Made by a program: the position numbers and the translations under genes
Shown here: positions 11,358 through 36,338 of the stretch, in pieces
How positions within the stretch are numbered: position 1 is the first letter of the stretch
How the letters are laid out: each line of letters starts with the position of its first letter
The notes under the pieces: generated by a model
Told to the model about the DNA's origin: nothing
The model's input: only the letters and a program-made list of their open reading frames with translations
Database searches by the model: none
Virus record (IMG/VR): IMGVR_UViG_2651869821_000001
DNA: 64,000 nt
Origin: a virus
Taxonomy: Duplodnaviria > Heunggongvirae > Uroviricota > Caudoviricetes
Reading direction: 5' to 3' (one strand)

Positions 11358-12070
11358 GTATTTACTTATTTTTGTTATATGTATAAGATTGCTTTGTTTT
11401 CGTTAGTACGCGACTGTTTGAACGTTTAAAGATAACTGCAAACGACAATCAGTATCTGGCAGTAGCCTAATAAGCCAAACACCAGCGAGGTCAGTTTCCA
11501 GCCTCGTCACCGAAATGGGACACACTGAGCGAGTGTGATTGCAGAACGCAGGAGAGGGCATGCATGGCACGACACCACTCATGCATGCCCTCTTCGATGA
11601 AGTAACAGGATGGGCGGTTGGTTTCCTCATTCCATTCACCCATCCCGGTTTCAGTTATCGACCGCCCATCCTGTTACGTCATTTCCATTACTTATGTCGT
11701 TTAATCTGGGTTAAAGCGGCGACGTAACCCGGCTGGCGTGGTTAGCCAGCACACAACGTTGAGACCACTGTTTTCTTTCAATCATACAGTGAAATCCACA
11801 GAGGCTGTAAGACTGACAAGGTTGTAATTGGGTAAAACTAATCGGTTAAGTGGTCTCAACGTTGTGGTTAATACCTTCAGGTGTAGCAAATTATGTGATG
11901 CCACAACATGGATGATTCCATATATCCAATAAGATCTAAACATCTGGCGCCTATCAACCGCCGAGTAGTCTTTAAGATCTTCGCTCTATTTGAGCAAGCC
12001 GCAAGCCTCGTCTGGCACTAACGTAAAGTGCAAGTTGCGGGAAAACTTCGGATTCCGAAGCTAGTACCGC

Positions 12071-12145
12071 TGCGAAATTGATGGTGTAGCTCAGTGGTAG
12101 AGCGGTTGACTGTTAATCAACTGGTCGGTGGTTCGAATCCACCCA
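12071..12145 (+). tRNA. tRNA-Asn (anticodon GTT), CCA encoded
   Basis: Hand-folded cloverleaf: acceptor GATGGTG/CATCATC (one G-U), D arm GCTC-AGTGGTA-GAGC, anticodon arm GTTGA-CTGTTAA-TCAAC, T arm GGTGG-TTCGAAT-CCACC, discriminator G, CCA. Confidence 0.85.
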
Positions 12146-12147
12146 TC

Positions 12148-12339
12148 ATCGCCAATGTGCATATGTCTCATAACCTGGAGCAAGGTTTAGCTGGCCAAGC
12201 GACGAAGGGTGAAGCCGGGTGGCTGGATTGAGCGGTTGGGAAGTGAAAGTCTTAATGAAATCTCCCAGAAATATCCGGATGAGTAAGAGAGAAAGTAAAA
12301 AGGATGAGTAATGGAGCAGGTCAGGTTCGAATCCTGGTA
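12148..12339 (+). ncRNA. tRNA-like element: 5' acceptor half and 3' T-arm/acceptor/CCA separated by about 180 nt (interrupted or intron-containing tRNA?)
   Basis: GTGCATA starts 2 nt after tRNA-Asn. 192 nt downstream lies TCAGG-TTCGAAT-CCTGG-TATGCAC-G-CCA, where TATGCAC is the exact complement of the 5' 7-mer. I could not fold a complete cloverleaf in between. Confidence 0.25.
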
Positions 12340-12678
12340 TGCACGCCAACACAACAGGTAATAGCATTCGCTTGTAACGGGATCATAGCCCAATCTACAG
12401 GTTCGCCAAGAATGCTATTACCGTTGTGATGAATTGCAGCTCTTTGAAGCAACCAGAAGATAAGCATCTGGCGTCACAACAAGCTAAATTTTGAGACACA
12501 TCGCTGAACGGTTTGGTTTCTCTTTAATTGAAATGACTCCGCTAACGTCACCCAGACCGTTCAACGCTGTGATAGACATTACAGCAGACGTTATTAACCA
12601 TAGTAGTGCTTCCTAGCATCGTAGCAACACTTTTTCAGCGCAAAATTTAAAGGGGCTTATGCCCCTTTTCTCTTTTAG

Positions 12679-13998
12679 TTAGTTAAAACTGAGCGAATTA
12701 AGATTTGCTTTGTAAGCATCGATCACTCTTTCAACCTCATTCACTATTCTATCAATCCTCTCAGAATGCTGCGGATTAGATTTGAGTTCTAAATATGCTT
12801 TTGATAAAGCATATTTAGACAGACTATATCCTATGTTTTCAGCAAGCATATTGTCAACGCCATTAGTTAGCAATATACCAGTCTGTCTGGTATCGAAAGA
12901 ATGTTTATAGTAAAGCTTAATAAGCCTTTTCAGATGTTTTTCATCCTTGATTGCTCTCTCGTCTAAACCAGTTATTTTAAGTTTCCAGCCAATAACACGA
13001 TGCAACGAAGATTCAAACTTAGCCACTTCCTCGGCTGCTTTTTCCATGTTCAATTCTATGCTGTTTCTCATGTATAGAGGTAATTTATTGAATATTTCCA
13101 ATAAATGCTGTTGGCAGGGGTTGTTATAGGTCCATAGAACTGCGAATGTAACCCTTTGGTGTCGGTTTAACACATTGGTATTAGGGGGCTCGCGACCACG
13201 AACCATTTCATCAACATAAAACTCTACGCCTCTTCGATATTCTTTGTTAAATATCTCACTGACATATGAATCTAAGAAATGAACTTTTGATATTGCATCT
13301 TCAAAAAAAAGCTCACTTTCAAAAAAGTTATATTTGTTTAGTAGGTTGTAAAGTTTCTTTGCGTCATAAGTTTTGTTATTATCGATATTAAGGCCAAAAA
13401 TGGCAATTAGCAGGCTTACTTTTGGGCTAATGCTGTTGCGCAACTGTTCTATGTAAGATCTCTTTTCACTATCAGCCGATGACGGCAGATAGAAGTCTTT
13501 ATCTAAATAGTTTAGTATTAGGATAATATGGTTAATATACTTTATATAAACAGGATTTTTTGTTGTGTAGTAATACATCCTTTTGATCGTATTAATCTCT
13601 AATTTAACATCATCAAACTGAGTGTCAGTTAATAAGGTCTTATTCACATCATCAAGCAATTTATTATGCTGTTCAAGTAATATGCCGTACCATTCTTTAA
13701 AAGAGGCTTTTTTCATTTCAAGAAGCGAAGCCGATGTCAGTTGAGTGGCCTTCATCGCAGCCTTTGCGCTATTCCTTGCTTCGTAAGCAGCCCAAGCAGT
13801 AGCTAAAGTGCCAAGCGTACCTATAACCTCTACGTTTTCCTTAACGACATCCCAGAAAATAGTCATCACTGTCCCAAGTATGAGGATTAATAAAACAGGC
13901 ATTTTATAAGTGTCTTTGGTTAATTTTGGAACTGAATGATACCTAATCGACCATATCATTTCAGCTAGTTTAAAGCTGTCTCGACGAATCTGGCGCAC
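12679..13998 (-). CDS. Hypothetical membrane-anchored protein encoded by an AT-rich opposite-strand insert (moron); candidate exclusion/abortive-infection-type function
   Basis: 439-aa minus-strand ORF visibly much more AT-rich than its neighbours (by eye). One TM (PVLLILILGTVMTIFWDVV) after about 30 residues, remainder alpha-helical and K/N/Y-rich. Followed by hairpin GGGGCTTATGCCCC. Confidence 0.6.
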   Translation of the reverse strand: MRQIRRDSFKLAEMIWSIRYHSVPKLTKDTYKMPVLLILILGTVMTIFWDVVKENVEVIGTLGTLATAWAAYEARNSAKAAMKATQLTSASLLEMKKASFKEWYGILLEQHNKLLDDVNKTLLTDTQFDDVKLEINTIKRMYYYTTKNPVYIKYINHIILILNYLDKDFYLPSSADSEKRSYIEQLRNSISPKVSLLIAIFGLNIDNNKTYDAKKLYNLLNKYNFFESELFFEDAISKVHFLDSYVSEIFNKEYRRGVEFYVDEMVRGREPPNTNVLNRHQRVTFAVLWTYNNPCQQHLLEIFNKLPLYMRNSIELNMEKAAEEVAKFESSLHRVIGWKLKITGLDERAIKDEKHLKRLIKLYYKHSFDTRQTGILLTNGVDNMLAENIGYSLSKYALSKAYLELKSNPQHSERIDRIVNEVERVIDAYKANLNSLSFN

Positions 13999-14107
13999 CA
14001 GCCTTTCAAAGTTCTTTCAGCAAGACAAATAAACCCATAAATAGGTAATGACTTACCTATTTATTTTAGCTATAGTCACGACAGTTACTCACTTGAAAGG
14101 AATCAAT

Positions 14108-14881
14108 ATGGGAAACAAGCGTAAACAGGCGCGACGCGCAGCTCGTCAGGTACTAAAGAACAAATCACGCATTCGTGGTTATGAAATCGACACAATCATT
14201 GTTGACGAACTGGCTGCCGCCCCTGCTCTGCCTCCGAAACCGAAGCGCGATAACTCTCCAATCGAAGCCCTCAACGAAGCTCAGGCTCATTATCTTATCT
14301 CGTTAGATAATAAGGCGCTAACTTTTGCCACTGGTGAGGCAGGCTGTGGCAAAACATACCTGGCTACTGCTGTCGCAGCGCAACGTCTTCTGGATAAGGA
14401 AGTCGATAAGATCATCGTTACTCGTCCTGTATTGCAAGCAGAAGAAGATCTGGGGTTCCTTCCTGGCGATATAAGCGAGAAATTTGCTCCATTCTTCCGG
14501 CCAGTCTATGACGTGCTACAGAAGCGTCTGGGTAGCTCATTTCTCGAATATTGCTTAAAGCCAGATGTTGCGAAAGTGGAGATTGCTCCCTTCGCATATA
14601 TGCGTGGACGCACGTTCGAAAATGCTGTCGTGATACTGGATGAAGCACAAAACGTTACGGTGTCACAAATGAAAATGTTCTTGACCCGGATGGGTGAGAA
14701 CGTAACGGTTATCGTTAACGGGGATATTACCCAATGCGATCTGCCAGGCAATGTCAAATCAGGGCTGGAAGACGCACTGGAGCGGTTCCAACCGTCCAGC
14801 CAAGTTGGTCTGATTGAATTCATGGCCGAAGACTGCGTGCGTTCTGAATTGTGCAAAATTGCACTTGAAGCTTATTTATAG
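14108..14881 (+). CDS. phoH: PhoH-like ATPase
   Basis: GEAGCGKTYLA Walker A and ILDEAQN..GDITQCDL signature; start taken at ATG 14108 with AAGGA RBS (track ORF starts at 14048). Confidence 0.8.
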   Translation: MGNKRKQARRAARQVLKNKSRIRGYEIDTIIVDELAAAPALPPKPKRDNSPIEALNEAQAHYLISLDNKALTFATGEAGCGKTYLATAVAAQRLLDKEVDKIIVTRPVLQAEEDLGFLPGDISEKFAPFFRPVYDVLQKRLGSSFLEYCLKPDVAKVEIAPFAYMRGRTFENAVVILDEAQNVTVSQMKMFLTRMGENVTVIVNGDITQCDLPGNVKSGLEDALERFQPSSQVGLIEFMAEDCVRSELCKIALEAYL

Positions 14882-14889
14882 GTAACTAA

Positions 14890-15138
14890 ATGACCGAGAT
14901 CACAATATACGGACGCGACAACTGCTCATACTGCAAACGAGCGGTCGAGCTGGCGAAACAGCTGCAAAGCCGCGGTTATGGCGAGTACGAATACATTGAC
15001 ATCGTGGCGGCCGGCATTGGGAAGGAGAAGTTAAGCGAACTGGTAGGTAAATCGGTAGAAACCATACCACAGGTCTTTGTTAATGGGGAGCCGATCGGTG
15101 GATACGAGGAGTTTGCTGAGTTAGCAAGTATTATGTAA
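14890..15138 (+). CDS. Glutaredoxin (NrdH/NrdC-like redoxin)
   Basis: 82 aa, IYGRDNCSYCKRA CxxC active site, TIPQVF, GGYEEF; typical partner of RNR. Confidence 0.75.
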   Translation: MTEITIYGRDNCSYCKRAVELAKQLQSRGYGEYEYIDIVAAGIGKEKLSELVGKSVETIPQVFVNGEPIGGYEEFAELASIM

Positions 15139-15168
15139 AAGAAGGGCCACTTATGTGGCCCTTCTTTA
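15139..15168. terminator. Bidirectional rho-independent terminator between convergent genes
   Basis: AAGAAGGGCCAC-TTAT-GTGGCCCTTCTTT perfect 12-bp stem with A and T runs on both sides. Confidence 0.75.
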
Positions 15169-15177
15169 CTGAATCTT

Positions 15178-15444
15178 TTAAATTTCGTTTAATTCTCGGA
15201 CGAGACTACCTTTCAACTTTCTGCGTAATAGTGTGGCAGATGAATGTTTTTTGCCCGCAGAAAGACCAGCTTTAAGGCCGCGTAAATACGCCTCGGAGTT
15301 AGCGGGGTGAGTCTTCAACTCGGCAGTAACCAACGCCTGCAAAACCTTCTTCTCACCATTAATAGAGCCGAGAAGTGCGGTGCGTTCGTGCTTATTGTAA
15401 TACGACATAGCAGGCTCTCCCCTCTGTAATTGTTTTGTACGCAT
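15178..15444 (-). CDS. Hypothetical small basic protein
   Basis: 88-aa minus-strand ORF (likely start MSYYNKHER); overlaps the 3' end of the upstream minus-strand gene. Confidence 0.3.
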   Translation of the reverse strand: MRTKQLQRGEPAMSYYNKHERTALLGSINGEKKVLQALVTAELKTHPANSEAYLRGLKAGLSAGKKHSSATLLRRKLKGSLVRELNEI

Positions 15445-15961
15445 GTAAGTCTTCCGGTATCAGTGGTCGCGGAGCTTTCTTTGGCAACCCTGTACGTATA
15501 TTATAGCGCGGTTCACTTTTTAACCCAAGCATATAGTCATAGGTCTCTTCAAGAGTCGTGCGGCGCCCAATGTCCACGACACCACCAGAAGCGGCCTGGA
15601 ATACAAATCCACCAATGTTAAATTTTTCATAGTGCGCGATTAGCGCCAATGAAACCGTTTGCAAAACCACAGCACTCCCTAATCCCTCAAATTTGACGTG
15701 GCGGAAGTCGGCCAAACCATCCATACCGTCAAAAACGTCAAAATAAACTTCTGCCATTCCGTTTGCAGGAAATGCAATGCCAGGGGGCATCTCGTATCCG
15801 ATTCGAGTGAAGGTCACTTCGTCAACCAGACTCCCCACAATAACGGTATATACTTCATTGCCGGCAACAAAAACGTAGCTGTGATGAACTCGATGATCAT
15901 AAACGAATTTTTTTCGTCTCATCCCATAATCATCGAGAAAAACTTCTTCTTCTATGCGCAC
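15392..15961 (-). CDS. Hypothetical protein
   Basis: 189-aa minus-strand ORF, no motif I can name. Confidence 0.4.
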   Translation of the reverse strand: MRIEEEVFLDDYGMRRKKFVYDHRVHHSYVFVAGNEVYTVIVGSLVDEVTFTRIGYEMPPGIAFPANGMAEVYFDVFDGMDGLADFRHVKFEGLGSAVVLQTVSLALIAHYEKFNIGGFVFQAASGGVVDIGRRTTLEETYDYMLGLKSEPRYNIRTGLPKKAPRPLIPEDLHAYKTITEGRACYVVLQ

Positions 15962-16040
15962 TTATTGCCCCTTTAAGAAGCATTTCATTTTGTGTGGCAT
16001 CATTGTCCTTTAATTCTTATTTTCCGTCAAACTGACTATA

Positions 16041-16073
16041 AATGATTCCATACCTATTAAGTATGGAATCATT
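16041..16073. promoter_or_regulatory. lox/dif-like core recombination site, 13-7-13 (AATGATTCCATAC-CTATTAA-GTATGGAATCATT)
   Basis: Perfect 13-bp inverted arms around a 7-bp asymmetric spacer, about 95 bp upstream of the tyrosine recombinase gene. Confidence 0.6.
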
Positions 16074-16168
16074 GACAAAAAACCGTTAAGTTTATGTTGA
16101 TCCTATAAGAAACAATGCCTAATATACTGTTTATGCATACAGTAAAGGCGTAACTCAGTGATTGGACT

Positions 16169-17275
16169 ATGAAAAATTCCTTTGATAGAGCACGCGCAGC
16201 CGAGAACACCTCTCAAGAGACGATTGAATATCTCGACCGAGCATCACAAATGACTACGATGGCAGCCTCTCTGGTAAGTGGCGACATGCGGTTTTCAGAT
16301 GCTTTTCAGTTATTCACTCGCTTATCTTTACTGATAACAAGACGTCGACCGGAAATAGCAGTTCACTGCATTTTGATACATGTTTTGCCATTCATAGCAG
16401 ATGTAAAAGTAAGTGATATAAACAGGGTTTTAGTCAACCAACTGGTGAACCCACTGATACTGGAAGGCAAGATAGTTATGGGGAGACGCGTGTTTTCCCT
16501 GATGAAACAATTTCTGGGATGGTGTGCCTTTCAAGGGATGATTGATACATCTCCTCTTAACGATCTGTCGCTGAACAAGGTCGCCGGTGGTGCCAAACCT
16601 GCACCGCGAGAAAGAAAGTTGACTGATGCCGAAGTCTGGGTTTTTTGGAATGTCTGGGATTATTTTAATGTATGCCCTGGTACAAAATGGGCCGCTAGAC
16701 TCTGTCTCGTAGCCGCTAGACGGCCAGATGAAGTACTGCGAGCTGGAGTACAGGAGTTTGATTTAAAAAGAGGTGTATGGAATCAAGGTACACGTAACAA
16801 ATCAGCCAGACATCATTCACTACCTTTAAGTTCGCTGATGAAGAAGTGCGTTGAGGAGCTTATCAATTATGGCAAAGGTAGCAAATGGCTCGTTCCGTCT
16901 AATAAGCAGCCAGGAAAAGATGTTCCTATGTCTAAGGTGGCCATAGCACAAGCTTTAAGAAGGATTCTTGAACGCCCTGAGCTTATGGATGTGGAAGCAT
17001 TTACACCACGAGATTTAAGACGTACAGCTAGAAGCTATTTTCCAGCATTAGGGATTAATCCTGAAGTCTCGCGTAAGATTATGAATCACAGCCTTGAGGG
17101 AATGGATCGCGTCTACGATCGACACGATTACATGGATGAGATGCGAGTCGCCCTGGAAGGTTTTTCGACATACATCGCATCCATAGTAAATCAAAACGAT
17201 TTAGACGAGATAGACCACAAATTCAAGGGAGATCGTCTAGCCACCGAGCTTATTCGTATAAACTTCTCACAGTGA
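16169..17275 (+). CDS. Tyrosine site-specific recombinase (Cre/XerD-like; probable multimer resolution or integration)
   Basis: C-terminal catalytic-domain pattern ..RPDEVLR..HSLPLS..LVPSNKQ..TPRDLRRTARS..MNHS..YDRHDY; 368 aa. Confidence 0.8.
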   Translation: MKNSFDRARAAENTSQETIEYLDRASQMTTMAASLVSGDMRFSDAFQLFTRLSLLITRRRPEIAVHCILIHVLPFIADVKVSDINRVLVNQLVNPLILEGKIVMGRRVFSLMKQFLGWCAFQGMIDTSPLNDLSLNKVAGGAKPAPRERKLTDAEVWVFWNVWDYFNVCPGTKWAARLCLVAARRPDEVLRAGVQEFDLKRGVWNQGTRNKSARHHSLPLSSLMKKCVEELINYGKGSKWLVPSNKQPGKDVPMSKVAIAQALRRILERPELMDVEAFTPRDLRRTARSYFPALGINPEVSRKIMNHSLEGMDRVYDRHDYMDEMRVALEGFSTYIASIVNQNDLDEIDHKFKGDRLATELIRINFSQ

Positions 17276-17653
17276 CTTGATGGCTTCAACAACCTTTTCA
17301 GAAGCGCCATGCTGACCATCAAAGCGCTGGCGAAACGCTTCTAAAACTTTCTTTTCGTCCGGAGAAAGAGGCGCTGTACCTTCTTCTCTAAAGAACTCCA
17401 GGAGTTCTGGGTGGCGCTCTTCAAGCACCATCAACATCAGACGAACAGGGTCGGCCCCAAGAGCATTTGCCAGTGGGCGAACCTTATCAATCGGTAAAGG
17501 GATTTTGCCACTCTTGATAAGCGAAAGGTTATTAGGGTTTTTATAACCTATTTCACTGGCAATAGTTGCCTGATTTTTAGAAGAAATCGTAATTAGAGAA
17601 TCGATGTATGCAGCGTATCGACCTGATTTATTTTCTGTTTCTTTGGTAGCCAT
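17267..17653 (-). CDS. XRE-family HTH transcriptional regulator (repressor-like)
   Basis: QATIASEIGYKNPNNLSLIKSGK helix-turn-helix; 128 aa; convergent with the recombinase and divergent from downstream plus-strand genes; palindromes in its 5' region. Confidence 0.7.
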   Translation of the reverse strand: MATKETENKSGRYAAYIDSLITISSKNQATIASEIGYKNPNNLSLIKSGKIPLPIDKVRPLANALGADPVRLMLMVLEERHPELLEFFREEGTAPLSPDEKKVLEAFRQRFDGQHGASEKVVEAIKSL

Positions 17654-17915
17654 AGTTAAACCTTGCGTGTTTTGTTTATCTCTGGTAAGTGCTTACCGAT
17701 ATTACAGTAAAGGCTAGGGTTGTAAAGACTTATCTATCTATTTTAGAAGGCATCAAAGTACTTGCCAAGCGGCAGTATAACACGGCTCAAGTTACTTATC
17801 TTGCCTGGTTATGAAGGAGAAAAGTGAGATATATCTGATATAGATATATTTAGTTTTGATACAATAGGTAGTAGTATTTGATAAAATTTAACCGTGTTCA
17901 GTTGGATGATATGAA

Positions 17916-18128
17916 ATGAAAAATATTACTTCTGATTTGACCGCCCTTGAGGTTGGAACAGCTTATGCGCTAAAAGAGGAAAATGCCGCGACAATTCTTA
18001 CCGAGTTCCCAGCTGTTGAGCTACCCCTGGACATGAACGATGCAACCGCATTCAAGTTTGAGTATTGCAACAAGCGCTTCACTTTGATTAACACCGGCTG
18101 CGGCTCAATAGCAGTTAGAACGAATTAA
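17916..18128 (+). CDS. Hypothetical small protein
   Basis: 70-aa ORF after the divergent promoter region. Confidence 0.35.
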   Translation: MKNITSDLTALEVGTAYALKEENAATILTEFPAVELPLDMNDATAFKFEYCNKRFTLINTGCGSIAVRTN

Positions 18129-18236
18129 CCTAACTTCCCACCTCCGTGACCTGTACGAACAGTTTTGATGCCTGTTCGTACAGCGCTAAATTACTAACAC
18201 AAGAAAACAAATTGTTTTAGCGACAAGGAAAATCTC

Positions 18237-33580: not shown

Positions 33581-33627
33581 TATTTACAACAAAAAATGTA
33601 TAAGTTAGTATCTACCTATCATGAAAA

Positions 33628-33800
33628 TCATATTAGACACCTTGTTACTTATTGTCTCGATAGCTTTTGTGCTTGATTGCATCTTCACCGGAGCAATCCG
33701 TAAAGCGTTGGCGCCTGTTAATGGCGCAATGATTAATGCGCTGGCCGTAGTGCTGGTGTTCGACTCAGCATTCGGCGTTATCAAAGGAGCCGCGGCATGA
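33628..33800 (+). CDS. Small hydrophobic protein (57 aa)
   Basis: Not in the supplied track (under 60 aa); two hydrophobic segments; stop overlaps the start of the next gene. Confidence 0.3.
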
Positions 33801-34132
33801 AGAAAATAGCTCTGGTTCTTGCACTGCTCTCCCTCCCTGTCTATGCGGACATACATGTCTATGAGTGTGAAATGTCTGTGGCCGAAGTGAAAAACGACGT
33901 GATCCGAAACGTCGTCAAAGCTGACTACGGCGCGATGGTTGTGGACAGCGGTGAACAGTTTTATGTAGTGCGCGATGAGCGCGTTCTGTCTTCCCCCTTT
34001 CTCACTAAACGTAACGGCAAACTGTCTGGTGTGGGTGAAGATAATTTCGTTTACAACAAATCTGGTGATGTCTACGGCGTTCACGCGAAGAACGTCAGTT
34101 ACCTTTTCGATGACTGCAAGGAGGTTGGTTAA
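33797..34132 (+). CDS. Secreted small protein (signal peptide)
   Basis: MKKIALVLALLSLPVYA signal peptide. Confidence 0.45.
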   Translation: MKKIALVLALLSLPVYADIHVYECEMSVAEVKNDVIRNVVKADYGAMVVDSGEQFYVVRDERVLSSPFLTKRNGKLSGVGEDNFVYNKSGDVYGVHAKNVSYLFDDCKEVG

Positions 34133-34344
34133 TGGCAATTACACTAGCAGGTCTGGAAATAGAAAAGGCAAGCGGTTACTGGCGTGCAAAGGGATTCAAA
34201 CAACCAGACGCATTGGAACGTCTTGAGCGAGAGGATGGGGTCATTATTCATCAGCGTCGTGAGTGGCGCATGTATGACTCTGAATCAGGCAGACTCACTT
34301 CAAAAGCCCAAACACTCTGGGGTCTGTTGAAGAAAATACACTAA
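34132..34344 (+). CDS. Hypothetical small protein
   Basis: 70-aa ORF with ATGG overlap. Confidence 0.35.
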   Translation: MAITLAGLEIEKASGYWRAKGFKQPDALERLEREDGVIIHQRREWRMYDSESGRLTSKAQTLWGLLKKIH

Positions 34345-34395: not shown

Positions 34396-34930
34396 CGCTG
34401 GCAGCATACACAGGAAGTTCTCGATAGATGTTCACCGCTGACAGCATACTAAAGTCGAATTTTAGATACGTATCTACCGTTGATAGCATACGCAAAGTTC
34501 GATGAAGACTATTTTCATCGGATTTTTAAATGTAAGCATGATCTGGTCAAAAATACCGCTGATAGCATATTACGGCTAAAAATGGGTCGCTATATACCGC
34601 TGGTAGCATATCCAAACGGAATATCACTCCTAAACTACCGCTGACAGCATACGTTAAACAAGATACATACAGATAGTTACATTCGCTGATACGAAAGCGT
34701 ATATCATCAGTGAAAGAATGTTAGTGAACACAAACATAGATGTGATGCGGTCTGTGAGGTTAGTAACCACTGGGTAATAGGTAGGAATAGATTGTGTGTG
34801 TTAAATTTCTACCGCTGACAGCATACTGAAATGTCAAAGTACCGCTGACAGCATATGTTTTACCGCTGGCAGCGTACTTTGGGCGTTAAACTACCGTTGA
34901 CAGCATACCTTTTGCCGTTGACAGCATATC
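34396..34930. repeat. Iteron array downstream of repA: about 11 copies of TACCGCTGACAGCATA in two clusters (incA-like)
   Basis: Copies at about 34396, 34430, 34469, 34552, 34595, 34635, 34810, 34841, 34860, 34890 and 34912, with 1 to 3 mismatches; both orientations are not seen (all direct). Confidence 0.85.
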
Positions 34931-36026
34931 AAAGCAGTTTAAGACTATTTGTGAGTATCTCTATCAGCTTGATGTTTTCCGGCGTCAGATTTTGCGACAG
35001 CTCGGTTATCTTATTGACAAGATTCTGTTTCGCATCGATTTCCCCTCTCTTTTCAGTCGGTTTGTCTAGCTCTCCGATGCCTTCTGGTTTCACGGAAGCG
35101 ACTTTTAGTTTCGGGTTGCGACTGTGGATCTGAATGTAGATCGAGCGTCCGCGCTTAATCTCGCTGTAGTCCAGATAACCAAGCTCTTTGAGAGATTTTA
35201 AGCCGTTGCGTATGGTCTGGTTCTGCGAACTGACGTTTCTACTACTCAGATTTAGTCGTGCTCGCAGACGAGCGAGAGAAACCGGTGCAGGTTTGGCTGG
35301 AAGACTTTCGATGAACGTATACAGCGCCTGTGCCGTTTCTTTGCGTGGAAGTTTATTAATGACCTTCAACTGGAGTAGAACCTTATGGTCGAAGCGATAC
35401 AGTTCTGCAAGCTTAGGTTCGGCATAAAAAACGACCGTGTCTTTCTGCTCGTTGTAGTCCACGCTATTGACGAGGTGAACCATCAGAAGTGAGATCTTAT
35501 TTGAGCCATCTACGTTCTTTTCTTCATATGTGCGCTGAAAAGACAATGTGGTACGCATAATTTTCAGGAGACTGTTTGTAAGTCTGTCCCGAAGAGTTTT
35601 TCTAATTTGTGACGATGGGTAGCCACAAAATTTTGCGAACTTAGTGATACTTAACTCAACACGCCCACTAGCCTCTCCGTATTCAGCCAGCGAACGTACA
35701 ACACCGACCCACGTTTTAAAATCATGATCCATATCCAAGCGCGGACCTGTTATCTTAATATCGGAGTAACCCTCTGAACGAGCAACTTCTAGCTGGACAA
35801 GCTCCTTTGAAGCATCAATCTCGTTTGGTCTGTTACGTTTGCTGTGTTTAGTCCCCTTTAACGTTGGAACGAACAGACCAAGCCTCATCAGGGCGATAGG
35901 CTGCACCGTGTTATTATTATTGGGTACAAGATCCCCTGTGTACAATTCGAGAGAATCTTCTTCAAAGTTGTCGAGGTTATCTTCTACTTCTTTGTTACTG
36001 TTGCCTTTTTTATTTTTTGTGGACAT
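34929..36026 (-). CDS. repA: Plasmid replication initiator (RepA-type, iteron-binding)
   Basis: Minus-strand ORF flanked by iterons on both sides (P1 oriR-like layout). The track ORF extends to 36173 across the upstream iterons; true start probably MSTKNKKGNS near 36026. Confidence 0.7.
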   Translation of the reverse strand: MSTKNKKGNSNKEVEDNLDNFEEDSLELYTGDLVPNNNNTVQPIALMRLGLFVPTLKGTKHSKRNRPNEIDASKELVQLEVARSEGYSDIKITGPRLDMDHDFKTWVGVVRSLAEYGEASGRVELSITKFAKFCGYPSSQIRKTLRDRLTNSLLKIMRTTLSFQRTYEEKNVDGSNKISLLMVHLVNSVDYNEQKDTVVFYAEPKLAELYRFDHKVLLQLKVINKLPRKETAQALYTFIESLPAKPAPVSLARLRARLNLSSRNVSSQNQTIRNGLKSLKELGYLDYSEIKRGRSIYIQIHSRNPKLKVASVKPEGIGELDKPTEKRGEIDAKQNLVNKITELSQNLTPENIKLIEILTNSLKLL

Positions 36027-36047
36027 GTGGATACCTTTCTCGTTCAA

Positions 36048-36150
36048 CCGCTGACAGCATACGTTATTTACCGCTGACAGCCTACAAAAAACAGACAACA
36101 GCATATTGCTTGCCGCTGACAGACTATCTTTTACCGCTGACAGCATACAC
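36048..36150. repeat. Iteron array upstream of repA (origin / incC-like), 4 to 5 copies
   Basis: AACCGCTGACAGCATACG, TACCGCTGACAGCCTACA, a partial copy, GCCGCTGACAGACTATC, TACCGCTGACAGCATACAC. Confidence 0.8.
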
Positions 36151-36338
36151 GAATGCTCTCTCAGACCAGTCACGGCGCGGCTTACAGCGATCGGGGATCT
36201 ATTAGGATCTATTTATGGATCTCTATAGGGATCTTATTATTAGGATCTATCCAGTGGATAATGTGGATAAGTAAAACAGGCATTTACGAAAATCTGTATA
36301 CCTTGTGCGGTATCGTATCCAAGACAATAACGAGCAGA

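What the first reader, a model, noticed from the sequence alone, without database searches (positions are those of the whole stretch)
12679..13998. AT-rich opposite-strand moron encoding a 439-aa membrane-anchored protein; candidate exclusion/defence function
This is the only large gene on the minus strand in a 60-kb plus-strand array. It is conspicuously more AT-rich than the flanks (rough visual estimate about one third GC against roughly one half around it) and sits right next to the tRNA block, a common landing site for acquired cargo. The product has a single N-proximal TM helix followed by about 390 aa of K/N/Y/L-rich helical sequence with no catalytic motif I recognise. That is the architecture typical of superinfection-exclusion or abortive-infection proteins carried as morons by prophages and phage-plasmids. 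If this window hides an undescribed system, this is my leading candidate gene.
Basis: partly seen in the sequence, partly recalled or inferred. Interest (0 to 1): 0.65.

Follow-up and report, generated by a model that had tools for sequence, protein, structure and literature searches.

The report
AbiC-like membrane defence gene cassette
An AT-rich, self-contained gene cassette on a Salmonella SSU5-type phage-plasmid encodes a membrane-anchored protein that is a remote, so far unrecognised relative of the lactococcal AbiC/AbiP abortive-infection proteins. It is most likely a single-gene anti-phage defence, but nobody has tested that.

Summary
The ORF exists, lies on the minus strand, and is the most AT-rich 1.3 kb of the window (35.8% GC against 46.3%, z = -3.6). 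Three details in the finding are wrong.

- **Length:** the protein is probably 407 aa, starting at ATG 13902, not 439 aa.
- **Strand:** it is not the only large minus-strand gene. A RepA-like ORF lies at 34929-36173.
- **tRNAs:** only one tRNA (Asn) is next to it.

**What the window is:** an SSU5-like phage-plasmid of Salmonella.

**The cassette:** the gene has its own promoter-like element and terminator hairpin. A near-identical backbone (pSTM_Phi) lacks the whole unit cleanly. The same unit sits solo and on the opposite strand in a lambdoid prophage, a P2-like prophage and two chromosomal sites. It is always 11-23 GC points below its surroundings and is under purifying selection (dN/dS 0.14-0.24).

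**Homology:** the window protein scores below threshold on Pfam putAbiC (PF16872). Its family aligns to PF16872-positive enterobacterial proteins at 99.8% hhalign probability. The PF16872 core also aligns to a lactococcal AbiC-like protein. PADLOC, PDB and viral fold libraries return nothing.

**Verdict:** a new member of the AbiC/AbiP kind. The moron and defence reading is largely supported, but the phenotype and mechanism are untested. Interest is moderate.

The parts
12679..13902 (-). Most likely coding sequence: a 407-aa AbiC/AbiP-superfamily protein, from ATG 13902 (M33 of the maximal ORF) to stop 12679-12681.
   Evidence: ORF. Homologues start at MPxL. In-frame stops lie upstream of this ATG in the Cedecea, P2-like and K. 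aerogenes copies. dN/dS is 0.14-0.24. PHROG 18168 matches from residue 45 of the long ORF.
13903..13998 (-). The 5' extension of the maximal ORF (32 codons from GTG 13998). Most likely a non-coding leader plus promoter, not protein.
   Evidence: DNA is conserved up to 13973 across unrelated contexts but is interrupted by in-frame stops elsewhere. The leader from 13935 to 13903 is unstructured.
13936..13964 (-). Sigma-70-like promoter element CTGAAA-N17-TATCAT. It would start transcription about 30 nt upstream of ATG 13902.
   Evidence: Consensus scan gives 9/12 matches. TATCAT and CTGMAA are kept in the phage-plasmid, Pectobacterium, lambdoid, P2-like and K. aerogenes copies (alignment A5). 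It is a consensus match only and has not been shown to be active.
13843..13902 (-). Encodes TM helix 1 (residues 1-20 of the 407-aa protein, MPVLLILILGTVMTIFWDVV).
   Evidence: Kyte-Doolittle 2.34 over 17 residues. Present in all full-length homologues.
13666..13833 (-). Encodes the second hydrophobic, small-residue-rich helix and the juxtamembrane helix (VEVIGTLGTLATAWAAYEARNSAKAAMKATQLT...). This is the most conserved part of the protein.
   Evidence: Mean majority fraction is 0.79, against 0.46-0.53 for the C-terminal half. The invariant residues W, T, A, W, A, A lie here. Hydrophobicity is 1.12 here and 1.6-2.1 in most relatives.
13315..13542 (-). Encodes the putAbiC (PF16872) core, residues 121-196 of the 407-aa protein.
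   Evidence: Pfam gives E 0.011, 16.6 bits. The same register appears in hhalign to PF16872-positive proteins and to the lactococcal AbiC-like protein.
12679..13314 (-). Encodes the variable C-terminal half: helices plus a small beta element. Candidate sensor region.
   Evidence: Lowest conservation in the family. The AF2 model is confident here, pLDDT mostly 86-97.
12649..12668 (.). G+C-rich 8-bp hairpin (AAAGGGGC-ATAA-GCCCCTTT) 10 nt after the stop codon. Likely a bidirectional intrinsic terminator, and the 3' edge of the cassette.
   Evidence: Terminator scan. Fold of -13.6 kcal/mol, z = -2.7. A hairpin is present after the stop in all ten contexts aligned (A6).
12676..14057 (.). The presence/absence unit: 1382 bp that are replaced by 52 bp in the near-identical Salmonella phage-plasmid pSTM_Phi.
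   Evidence: blastn of the window against L016: homology ends at 12675 and resumes at 14058.
14037..14064 (.). Perfect 12-bp A+T-rich palindrome with a 4-nt loop, at the 5' edge of the cassette in the divergent intergenic region with phoH.
   Evidence: Inverted repeat I9. Folds at z = -4.0 and -5.0 on the two strands. A hairpin of different sequence sits at the same place in E. coli and Klebsiella relatives (A5) and in the empty site.

Best explanation
The gene is a single-gene, self-contained cassette (own promoter, gene, terminator). It encodes a cytoplasmic-membrane-anchored protein of the AbiC/AbiP (PF16872) superfamily. The phage-plasmid most likely carries it as an anti-phage defence for its lysogen.

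Proposed working, all of it inferred:
- The protein is made constitutively from its own promoter while the phage-plasmid is a plasmid.
- A short N-terminal hairpin inserts it in the inner membrane. The hairpin is TM1 plus a small-residue-rich second helix, joined by an acidic loop facing outside. A K/R-rich stretch follows on the inside, so the roughly 340-residue helical domain faces the cytoplasm.
- The variable C-terminal half recognises a product of an infecting phage. For the relative AbiP the trigger is a major tail protein.
- The conserved membrane/juxtamembrane module and PF16872 core then stop the infection. They could do so by disturbing the membrane, or, as described for AbiP, by binding RNA and blocking the early-to-late switch. 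AbiC lowers capsid protein production.

Shown here: the cassette anatomy, its mobility, purifying selection and the homology chain. Inferred: expression, topology, the defence phenotype, the trigger and the effector step.
For: Homology:
- Pfam putAbiC is the top hit for the window protein, though below threshold (E 0.013).
- It hits 31 of 69 close family members (best 1.5e-5).
- It hits 53 of 63 distant relatives found by a full-library profile search (best 1.4e-11).
- hhalign of the family against PF16872-positive 'putative phage abortive infection proteins' gives 99.8% probability, E 5.9e-28, over 312 columns.
- A lactococcal AbiC-like protein (PADLOC AbiC 4e-133, AbiP 3e-5, PF16872 32 bits) aligns to the broad profile in the same register (E 3.6e-5).

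Architecture:
- N-terminal TM helices as in AbiC (two) and AbiP (one) (PMC13064643).
- No enzymatic motif and no structural neighbour, as the review also reports for AbiC/AbiP (PMC13064643).
- The membrane module is conserved and the C-terminal half is variable.

Moron and defence-like behaviour:
- Clean presence/absence against pSTM_Phi.
- Alleles only 31-39% identical sit at the same slot in E. coli and Klebsiella phage-plasmids.
- The same unit (window 12643-13973) lies solo and on the opposite strand in a lambdoid prophage, in a P2-like prophage between the baseplate-spike (Phage_base_V) and tail-completion (Phage_tail_S) genes, and in two chromosomal sites, with no shared neighbour.
- Its GC is 31-38% everywhere.
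- dN/dS is 0.14-0.24.
Against: - No experiment exists for this family or for any enterobacterial PF16872 protein that I could find.
- The window protein is below Pfam's gathering score. PADLOC gives no hit to it at E up to 1, and no AbiC or AbiP hit to any of its 69 family members.
- Similarity to lactococcal AbiC covers only about 60 residues and is of modest significance. With the narrow family profile it is not significant.
- A lactococcal AbiC-like protein 38% identical to AbiC gave no resistance when tested (PMC11381338), so family membership does not guarantee activity.
- No known defence gene flanks it in this window.
- In this allele the second hydrophobic helix is shortened, so the topology is uncertain.
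- The mechanisms of AbiC and AbiP are themselves unresolved.
Confidence: 0.6

Rival explanations
1. Superinfection exclusion. The membrane protein blocks DNA entry of incoming phages at the envelope, like P22 SieA, T4 Imm or lactococcal Sie2009, rather than aborting an established infection.
For: - It is membrane-anchored and encoded by temperate elements with its own promoter, opposite to the phage operons.
- It carries no enzymatic motif.
Against: - Its only detectable relatives are AbiC/AbiP-type proteins, which act after DNA entry (PMC13064643).
- From my own knowledge, known Sie proteins are much smaller and lack a 340-residue cytoplasmic domain.
- It also occurs at chromosomal sites outside recognisable prophage genes.
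Confidence: 0.12
2. A lysogenic-conversion or fitness factor unrelated to phages, for example an envelope protein that changes stress tolerance or competition. A variant of this rival is a membrane toxin that helps keep the plasmid.
For: - It is AT-rich cargo in an accessory region that elsewhere holds a YafO toxin and a microcin immunity gene.
- Function is unknown in every database searched.
Against: - No conserved partner or antitoxin exists in any context, and the mobile unit has no room for a second gene.
- Homology points to Abi proteins.
- Replacement by very divergent alleles at one slot, together with a variable C-terminal half, is the pattern expected of an arms-race gene.
Confidence: 0.15
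3. A gene serving the phage-plasmid's own life cycle, such as a lysis, injection or replication accessory.
For: It sits among replication and nucleotide-metabolism genes (ligase, PhoH, glutaredoxin, CobT, Pol III alpha).
Against: - It is absent from SSU5 itself, from the other SSU5-like phage records in the phage collection (about ten by the ligase marker), and from about five in six SSU5-like plasmids.
- It is absent from the near-identical pSTM_Phi.
- It is found as a solo gene in unrelated phage types and in chromosomes.
Confidence: 0.04
4. A decaying or spurious ORF in AT-rich junk DNA.
For: - Low GC, and no family hit above threshold.
- Truncated copies and IS insertions occur in some relatives.
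Against: - dN/dS is 0.14-0.24 over saturated synonymous distances.
- There are 85 cluster representatives with full-length conservation.
- The AF2 model is confident, pLDDT 83.6.
Confidence: 0.02

Closest known systems
Lactococcal AbiC (pTN20; Pfam PF16872 putAbiC; PADLOC AbiC) and its p275A homologue
   Same: - A single-gene system on a mobile element.
- N-terminal transmembrane helices followed by an all-helical domain with no enzymatic motif and no structural neighbour.
- A shared core of about 60-80 residues (Y..[IL]..[IL]L..[IL][DN]..F ... K.Y...LR..[IL] ... L[IL]A[IV]), aligned in the same register by Pfam and hhalign.
- The gene is more AT-rich than its surroundings.
   Different: - 407 aa here, against 338 aa for the p275A homologue and about 344 aa for AbiC itself (from memory).
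- Similarity is confined to the core.
- The window protein is below Pfam's cut-off and is not detected by PADLOC's AbiC model.
- The C-terminal 200 residues have no counterpart.
- Gram-negative host, carried by a phage-plasmid.
- No phenotype is known.
Lactococcal AbiP
   Same: - Same superfamily: the AbiC-like protein also hits PADLOC's AbiP model, and the review groups them as AbiC/P (PMC13064643).
- An N-terminal membrane anchor that is essential for function, with a cytoplasmic domain.
- Thought to be activated by a phage structural protein.
   Different: - AbiP has one TM helix and a demonstrated RNA/ssDNA-binding domain. Nothing of that kind was tested here.
- The soluble domain here is only mildly basic, pI 8.8.
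- There is no direct significant alignment to AbiP.
Enterobacterial 'putative phage abortive infection proteins' with PF16872 (e.g. P0109 Klebsiella michiganensis, P0163 Citrobacter amalonaticus, P0116 Pectobacterium peruviense)
   Same: - Clear homologues over about 310 columns, covering the membrane hairpin, the LLEQH helix and the PF16872 core (hhalign 99.8%).
- Similar length (427-491 aa) and the same taxonomic range.
   Different: - Only 18-29% identical.
- The window family lost enough of the Pfam signature to be annotated 'hypothetical protein' everywhere.
- Its C-terminal part differs.
- These proteins are untested too.
SLATT-type two-TM effectors and RexB-like membrane Abi effectors
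   Same: - A short N-terminal TM hairpin followed by helices.
- Weak, sub-threshold SLATT_1 matches over the hairpin.
- The idea of a membrane-perturbing effector step.
   Different: - The matches are far below cut-off (12-14 bits against 26-41).
- No associated nucleotide-signalling or partner gene.
- Resemblance of concept only.

Membership tests
AbiC/AbiP superfamily (Pfam PF16872 putAbiC) | PF16872 domain at or above Pfam's gathering score in the protein itself | tested here: not met
   16.5 bits, E 0.013, against a cut-off of 22. It is the top hit, at residues 153-228 of the long ORF.
AbiC/AbiP superfamily (Pfam PF16872 putAbiC) | Profile-level homology of its family to proteins that do pass PF16872 | tested here: met
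   hhalign A2 against A4 gives 99.8% probability, E 5.9e-28, 312 columns. PF16872 hits 31/69 close and 53/63 distant relatives.
AbiC/AbiP superfamily (Pfam PF16872 putAbiC) | Direct similarity to lactococcal AbiC | tested here: inconclusive
   - PADLOC's AbiC model does not hit the window protein or any of the 69 family members.
- It does hit one PF16872-positive enterobacterial relative, P0177, at 3.6e-5.
- hhalign of the broad profile A3 against the p275A AbiC-like protein gives E 3.6e-5, 71% probability, 58 columns.
- The narrow profile A2 gives E 0.076 in the same register.
AbiC/AbiP superfamily (Pfam PF16872 putAbiC) | N-terminal transmembrane anchor (two helices in AbiC, one in AbiP) | tested here: met
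   TM1 scores KD 2.34. The second helix scores 1.12 here and 1.6-2.1 in most of the family. The p275A AbiC-like protein has two helices at 2.5. These are hydropathy values only; no dedicated TM predictor was available.
AbiC/AbiP superfamily (Pfam PF16872 putAbiC) | Works as a single gene without a conserved partner | tested here: met
   Five unrelated genomic contexts share only window 12643-13973.
AbiC/AbiP superfamily (Pfam PF16872 putAbiC) | Abortive-infection or phage-resistance phenotype | not testable with these tools
   Needs plating, one-step growth and survival assays. No report was found in the literature searches.
Moron (Hendrix/Juhala sense: autonomous promoter-gene-terminator unit inserted between phage genes) | Own promoter and terminator flanking one gene | tested here: met
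   The promoter-like CTGAAA-N17-TATCAT is conserved with the gene across contexts. A terminator hairpin follows the stop in all contexts. Activity itself was not measured.
Moron (Hendrix/Juhala sense: autonomous promoter-gene-terminator unit inserted between phage genes) | Present in some and absent from other closely related elements; deviant base composition | tested here: met
   pSTM_Phi provides an empty site. SSU5 lacks it. GC is 11-23 points below the flanks in nine loci.
Abi_C / AbiJ HEPN RNases (PF14355), easily confused by name | Abi_C domain with a conserved Rx4-6H motif | tested here: not met
   No PF14355 hit. No conserved R...H pair among the invariant columns; the only invariant polar residues are H79, Y122 and Y150.
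SLATT two-TM effectors | SLATT domain above threshold, usually with a SMODS/SLOG partner | tested here: not met
   SLATT_1 scores 12.4 bits (cut-off 26.3) in Pfam and 14.1 bits (cut-off 41) in NCBIfam. No partner genes.
Superinfection-exclusion proteins (SieA, Imm, Sie2009 types) | Sequence or fold similarity to a known Sie protein | tested here: not met
   PHROGs returns only families of unknown function. BFVD and PDB fold searches give nothing significant.
Superinfection-exclusion proteins (SieA, Imm, Sie2009 types) | Blocks phage DNA entry | not testable with these tools
   Needs DNA-injection assays.

The most novel reading that the evidence does not exclude
The family is an unrecognised enterobacterial defence family that shares only an ancient core with AbiC/AbiP. 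Its nearly invariant small-residue membrane and juxtamembrane helices form an infection-triggered pore or membrane lesion. Its fast-evolving C-terminal half reads a phage structural protein. The whole 1.3-kb promoter-gene-terminator unit moves as a cassette between the accessory slots of three unrelated temperate phage types: SSU5-like phage-plasmids, lambdoid prophages and P2-like prophages.
Probability: 0.3. Interest if true: 0.55.

Novelty: new member of a known kind. Interest (0 to 1): 0.38.

Why it matters
- **Open mechanism.** AbiC was described in 1992, and its mode of action and AbiP's are still open. This is a Gram-negative branch that can be studied in E. coli or Salmonella, with natural 'with and without' backbones (CP119474/AnCo3 against pSTM_Phi).
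- **A blind spot in defence surveys.** PADLOC does not flag this family, and a DefenseFinder survey of SSU5-like phage-plasmids does not list an AbiC-type system (10.1101/2025.09.12.675607). Defence inventories of these clinically common elements may therefore be undercounted.
- **A worked example of a moron.** The same small autonomous cassette appears in three unrelated temperate phage types, which is a tidy case of how such units travel.
- **Limits.** The kind of system is known and no phenotype has been shown, so the overall surprise is moderate.

Tried and rejected
- **PADLOC:** no family for the window protein at E up to 1; for its 69 relatives only scattered weak hits to unrelated models and no AbiC or AbiP hit. 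No known defence gene among nine neighbours; PhoH gives only generic P-loop matches.
- **NCBIfam:** only a sub-threshold SLATT match.
- **PDB by sequence:** nothing, with the single protein or with profile A3.
- **afdb50:** the library was unavailable.
- **Literature:** 'putAbiC' returned nothing. 'AbiC' hits in the S. aureus SadR, Tn7 cargo and integron papers concern the unrelated Abi_C/AbiJ HEPN domain PF14355, so I rejected them as irrelevant.
- **HEPN-like or other catalytic motifs:** no conserved R...H pair.
- **Insertion by the nearby integrase (16169-17275) with att repeats:** no direct repeats flank the cassette, and the empty site shows no target duplication.
- **Second gene or small RNA in the cassette:** Rfam finds only tRNA-Asn, and the shared unit has no room for another gene.
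- **GTG 13998 as the start:** rejected because of in-frame stops in other contexts.
- **tblastn against 50,697 phage records:** no match. Only about ten SSU5-like phages are in that collection, so this absence says little.
Full report
**1. Observation**

The ORF is real. It runs at 12679..13998 on the minus strand, with a GTG start and 439 codons.

- Its GC is 35.8%. The window mean is 46.3%, with SD 3.0% for 1320-bp windows.
- It is the lowest-GC stretch of that size in the 64 kb (z = -3.6). Only 0.26% of windows are as low, and all of them overlap it.
- GC3 is 35%, against 38-58% in fourteen other genes.
- ARAGORN and Rfam find one tRNA in the window, tRNA-Asn(GTT) at 12080-12154.

Three points in the finding need correcting.

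- The gene is not the only large minus-strand gene. ORF 34929..36173(-) is 414 aa and has a Rep3_N replication-initiator domain. The minus-strand ORFs 15392..15961 and 17267..17653 correspond to annotated genes in the relative AnCo3.
- The 'tRNA block' is a single tRNA here. Related elements have Asn+Thr+Ser.
- 439 aa is the longest ORF, not the likely protein (section 3).

**2. What the window is**

The 4 kb around the gene is 99.0% identical to Salmonella enterica plasmid CP119474.1 and 97.1% identical to AnCo3 (NZ_KY515226). It is more distantly related to hundreds of non-mobilizable plasmids of about 105-115 kb from Escherichia, Klebsiella, Enterobacter and Yersinia, and to phage SSU5.

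The window is therefore an SSU5-like phage-plasmid. The local gene order is:

- DNA ligase
- small ORFs
- tRNA-Asn
- the target gene (-)
- PhoH
- glutaredoxin
- two small (-) genes
- integrase
- a small (-) gene
- CobT-like

. SSU5 itself goes straight from tRNA-Asn to the CobT-like 'porphyrin biosynthetic' gene. Everything from about 12155 to about 18200 is therefore accessory.

**3. Anatomy of the unit**

blastn of window 11800-14400 against nine loci from other genomes defines what travels with the gene.

- In a Pectobacterium chromosome (L004) and a P2-like prophage (L009), similarity covers window 12642/12643 to 13973/13974.
- In a Klebsiella aerogenes chromosome (L010), it covers 12670-13972.
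- In a Cedecea lambdoid prophage (L006), it reaches the same 5' end, 13973.

The shared DNA therefore contains three things:

- the ORF from ATG 13902;
- 71 nt upstream of that ATG;
- on the 3' side, a hairpin right after the stop codon.

The upstream 71 nt lie inside the '439-aa' ORF. They contain in-frame stop codons in the Cedecea, P2-like and K. aerogenes copies. Nearly all homologues outside the phage-plasmid clade begin 'MP[VIL]...'. I conclude that the protein starts at M33 (ATG 13902) and is 407 aa.

The conserved leader carries a sigma-70-like CTGAAA-N17-TATCAT (13964..13936, 9/12 matches). Its -10 hexamer is identical in seven copies that align confidently. The 33 nt between it and the ATG are unstructured.

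Ten nt after the stop lies an 8-bp G+C hairpin at 12649-12668 (-13.6 kcal/mol, z = -2.7), followed by a U-rich tract on both strands. Every context has a hairpin at that place, with different sequences.

This is the textbook promoter-gene-terminator unit. Activity of the promoter and terminator is inferred from sequence only.

**4. Presence and absence**

pSTM_Phi (NZ_KP763470, S. Typhimurium) has a ligase 99.1% identical and a backbone 92-96% identical. It matches the window up to 12675 and again from 14058, with 52 bp in between instead of 1382 bp.

The edges coincide with the G+C hairpin on one side and a perfect 12-bp A+T palindrome (14037-14064) on the other. No target duplication or flanking direct repeat is visible. 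The mechanism of gain or loss is therefore unknown, and recombination in conserved flanks is the simplest guess.

- tblastn finds the family in 137 of 72,556 plasmid records.
- About 750 plasmids have an SSU5-type ligase at 80% identity or more. Roughly one SSU5-like element in six has a family member, and only three carry this allele (>=95%).
- In E. coli and Klebsiella phage-plasmids, alleles only 31-39% identical occupy the same slot in the same orientation.
- No phage record has the gene. That collection holds only about ten SSU5-like genomes.

**5. Other contexts**

- In Cedecea neteri the gene sits alone on the opposite strand in a lambdoid prophage. It lies between the replication genes (lambda-P-like) and the RusA/antiterminator-Q region.
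- In a 4.76-Mb genome it sits alone on the opposite strand in a P2-like prophage, between the baseplate-spike (Phage_base_V) and tail-completion (Phage_tail_S) genes. From memory, that is where P2 carries its own low-GC orf30; I did not check this.
- In Pectobacterium brasiliense and K. aerogenes it is chromosomal and flanked by long non-coding gaps. One related contig has an IS110 next to it.

No neighbour is shared between contexts, so it acts alone.

In all nine loci examined the gene is 31-38% GC, 11-23 points below the rest of its locus. AT-richness is a property of the family, not of a recent arrival.

dN/dS against the Enterobacter, K. aerogenes, Pectobacterium, P2-like and Cedecea copies is 0.14-0.24, at dS 0.7-1.9. 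It is a functional protein gene.

**6. The protein: sequence searches**

- Pfam, PADLOC, PHROGs and NCBIfam on the protein itself give one strong hit, PHROG 18168 (unknown function, 4.5e-140, from residue 45). They also give a sub-threshold top Pfam hit to putAbiC PF16872 (E 0.013, 16.5 bits against a cut-off of 22). PADLOC returns nothing.
- A word-indexed search finds 74 relatives. All are 'hypothetical', and most come from contigs of about 105-112 kb.
- A full HMMER profile search of 1.84 billion cluster representatives finds only 85 at E <= 0.001. The family is rare.
- PF16872 hits 31 of 69 close members (best 1.5e-5) and 53 of 63 distant ones (best 1.4e-11).
- A second search with the broad alignment returns proteins that NCBI names 'putative phage abortive infection protein', from Klebsiella, Citrobacter, Pectobacterium, Pantoea and Proteus.
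- hhalign of the window family against those PF16872-positive proteins gives 99.8% probability, E 5.9e-28, 312 aligned columns. The alignment covers the membrane hairpin, the 'LLEQH' helix and the PF16872 core.

To tie PF16872 to the experimentally defined system, I fetched the AbiC homologue of L. lactis plasmid p275A named in PMC6458302 (L015 24554-25570).

- It scores 4.3e-133 on PADLOC's AbiC model, 3.4e-5 on AbiP, and 32 bits on PF16872.
- It aligns to my broad profile at E 3.6e-5 over residues 119-175 of the 407-aa protein. This is the same segment that Pfam marks.
- With the narrow family profile the same register appears, but it is not significant.

The chain of homology is:

1. lactococcal AbiC/AbiP to PF16872;
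2. PF16872 to enterobacterial PF16872 proteins;
3. those proteins to the window family.

The last link is strong and the first is limited to a core of about 60-80 residues.

**7. The protein: structure and conservation**

AF2 with 69 sequences gives pLDDT 83.6 and pTM 0.76. The model is all-helical with a small beta element near residues 307-353. The first 60 residues are of low confidence.

Hydropathy:

- TM1 (residues 1-20) scores 2.34.
- A second segment rich in A/T/G/S ('VIGTLATSLAFLATAWAAYEA') scores 1.6-2.1 in most relatives.
- It scores only 1.12 in this allele, which lacks four residues.

The loop between the two is acidic (DVVKENVE), and the sequence after the second segment is K/R-rich. 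By the positive-inside rule this suggests an N-in/C-in hairpin with the large domain in the cytoplasm. That topology is an inference.

Conservation along the protein:

| Region | Mean majority fraction |
|---|---|
| Second helix plus juxtamembrane helix | 0.79 |
| PF16872 core | 0.70 |
| C-terminal half | 0.46-0.53 |

No conserved catalytic constellation exists. Across the broad alignment, the only conserved polar residues are one His and two Tyr.

**8. Interpretation**

The best-supported reading is a single-protein, membrane-anchored defence of the AbiC/AbiP kind, carried as a moron. Three things are known for the relatives (PMC13064643):

- AbiC has two TM helices and lowers capsid-protein production.
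- AbiP has one TM helix and binds RNA more strongly than ssDNA. It blocks phage DNA replication and the early-to-late transcription switch.
- AbiP becomes toxic when a major tail protein is present.

By analogy, I propose a variable cytoplasmic sensor and a conserved membrane-proximal effector. I cannot choose between a membrane lesion and nucleic-acid binding as the effector step.

I put 0.6 on 'anti-phage defence of this kind', and much less on any specific step.

The rivals are superinfection exclusion, a phage-unrelated conversion or maintenance factor, a function in the element's own cycle, and junk. They are weighed in the Rival explanations section. The last two are contradicted by the presence/absence and selection data.

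**9. Novelty and verdict**

The kind is known, and the NCBI name of the sister clade already says 'putative phage abortive infection protein'. What is new:

- This clade is not recognised by Pfam's threshold or by PADLOC. A DefenseFinder survey of SSU5-like phage-plasmids does not list an AbiC-type system (10.1101/2025.09.12.675607).
- The cassette, promoter and terminator included, is shared by three unrelated temperate phage types.

I rate it a new member of a known kind, of moderate interest.

Noticed in passing
window 34929-36173 (-): A 414-aa minus-strand ORF with a Rep3_N (RepA-type initiator, WH1) domain. It is probably the plasmid replication initiator of the phage-plasmid. ORF 33605-34138(-), which has no family hit, lies next to it.
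   Followed up: partly
window 12155-12409, especially 12313-12348: Relatives carry tRNA-Thr and tRNA-Ser after tRNA-Asn; this window does not. A stretch resembling a tRNA T-arm plus acceptor 3' end (GGTCAGGTTCGAATCCTGGTATGCACGCCA) remains, probably the remnant of a lost tRNA.
   Followed up: partly
window 12410-12481: 72 nt that are 94-97% identical to the 'plp' lipoprotein region of phages P1, P7, D6, RCS47 and SJ46, and conserved in Klebsiella and E. coli SSU5-like elements. It is a short sequence shared between two unrelated phage-plasmid groups, of unknown meaning.
   Followed up: no
window 14037-14064: A perfect 12-bp A+T-rich palindrome with a 4-nt loop between the cassette and phoH. E. 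coli and Klebsiella relatives, and the empty site of pSTM_Phi, keep a hairpin there with a different sequence. It could be a weak bidirectional terminator, an operator or a recombination hotspot.
   Followed up: partly
window 12788-12819: A perfect 14-nt inverted repeat (TCTAAATATGCTTT / AAAGCATATTTAGA, 4-nt spacer) inside the 3' part of the coding sequence. No explanation.
   Followed up: no
window 14048-14881 (+): The maximal PhoH ORF starts at 14048, inside the palindrome. Relatives are annotated from the second ATG (14108), which has a good Shine-Dalgarno sequence (GAAAGGA). PhoH is probably 257 aa, not 277.
   Followed up: partly
window 15178-15444 (-) and 15392-15961 (-): Two overlapping minus-strand genes (88 and 189 aa) with no Pfam or PADLOC hit. 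In Enterobacter and Klebsiella phage-plasmids the equivalent slot holds a hypothetical gene plus a YafO-family toxin, and in one case a microcin immunity gene. This looks like a second variable cargo slot.
   Followed up: partly
window about 12155-18200: The whole stretch between tRNA-Asn and the CobT-like gene is absent from phage SSU5. It holds the cassette, phoH, grxA, two unknown genes, a tyrosine integrase at 16169-17275 and a small minus-strand gene. AnCo3 has an extra Gp49-family gene here.
   Followed up: partly
L004 1671-3521; L009 20612-21245: In the Pectobacterium chromosome and beside the P2-like prophage, genes for AAA_15/AAA_21 (OLD/Gabija-type) ATPases lie within 10 kb of the homologue. 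This is a weak hint of a defence-rich neighbourhood.
   Followed up: no
plasmid hits H45-H48, H54 (E. hormaechei); proteins P0058, P0059, P0043: Several relatives have an IS3-family ISSen4 next to or inside the homologue, and truncated products of about 250-285 aa. The gene is sometimes inactivated.
   Followed up: no
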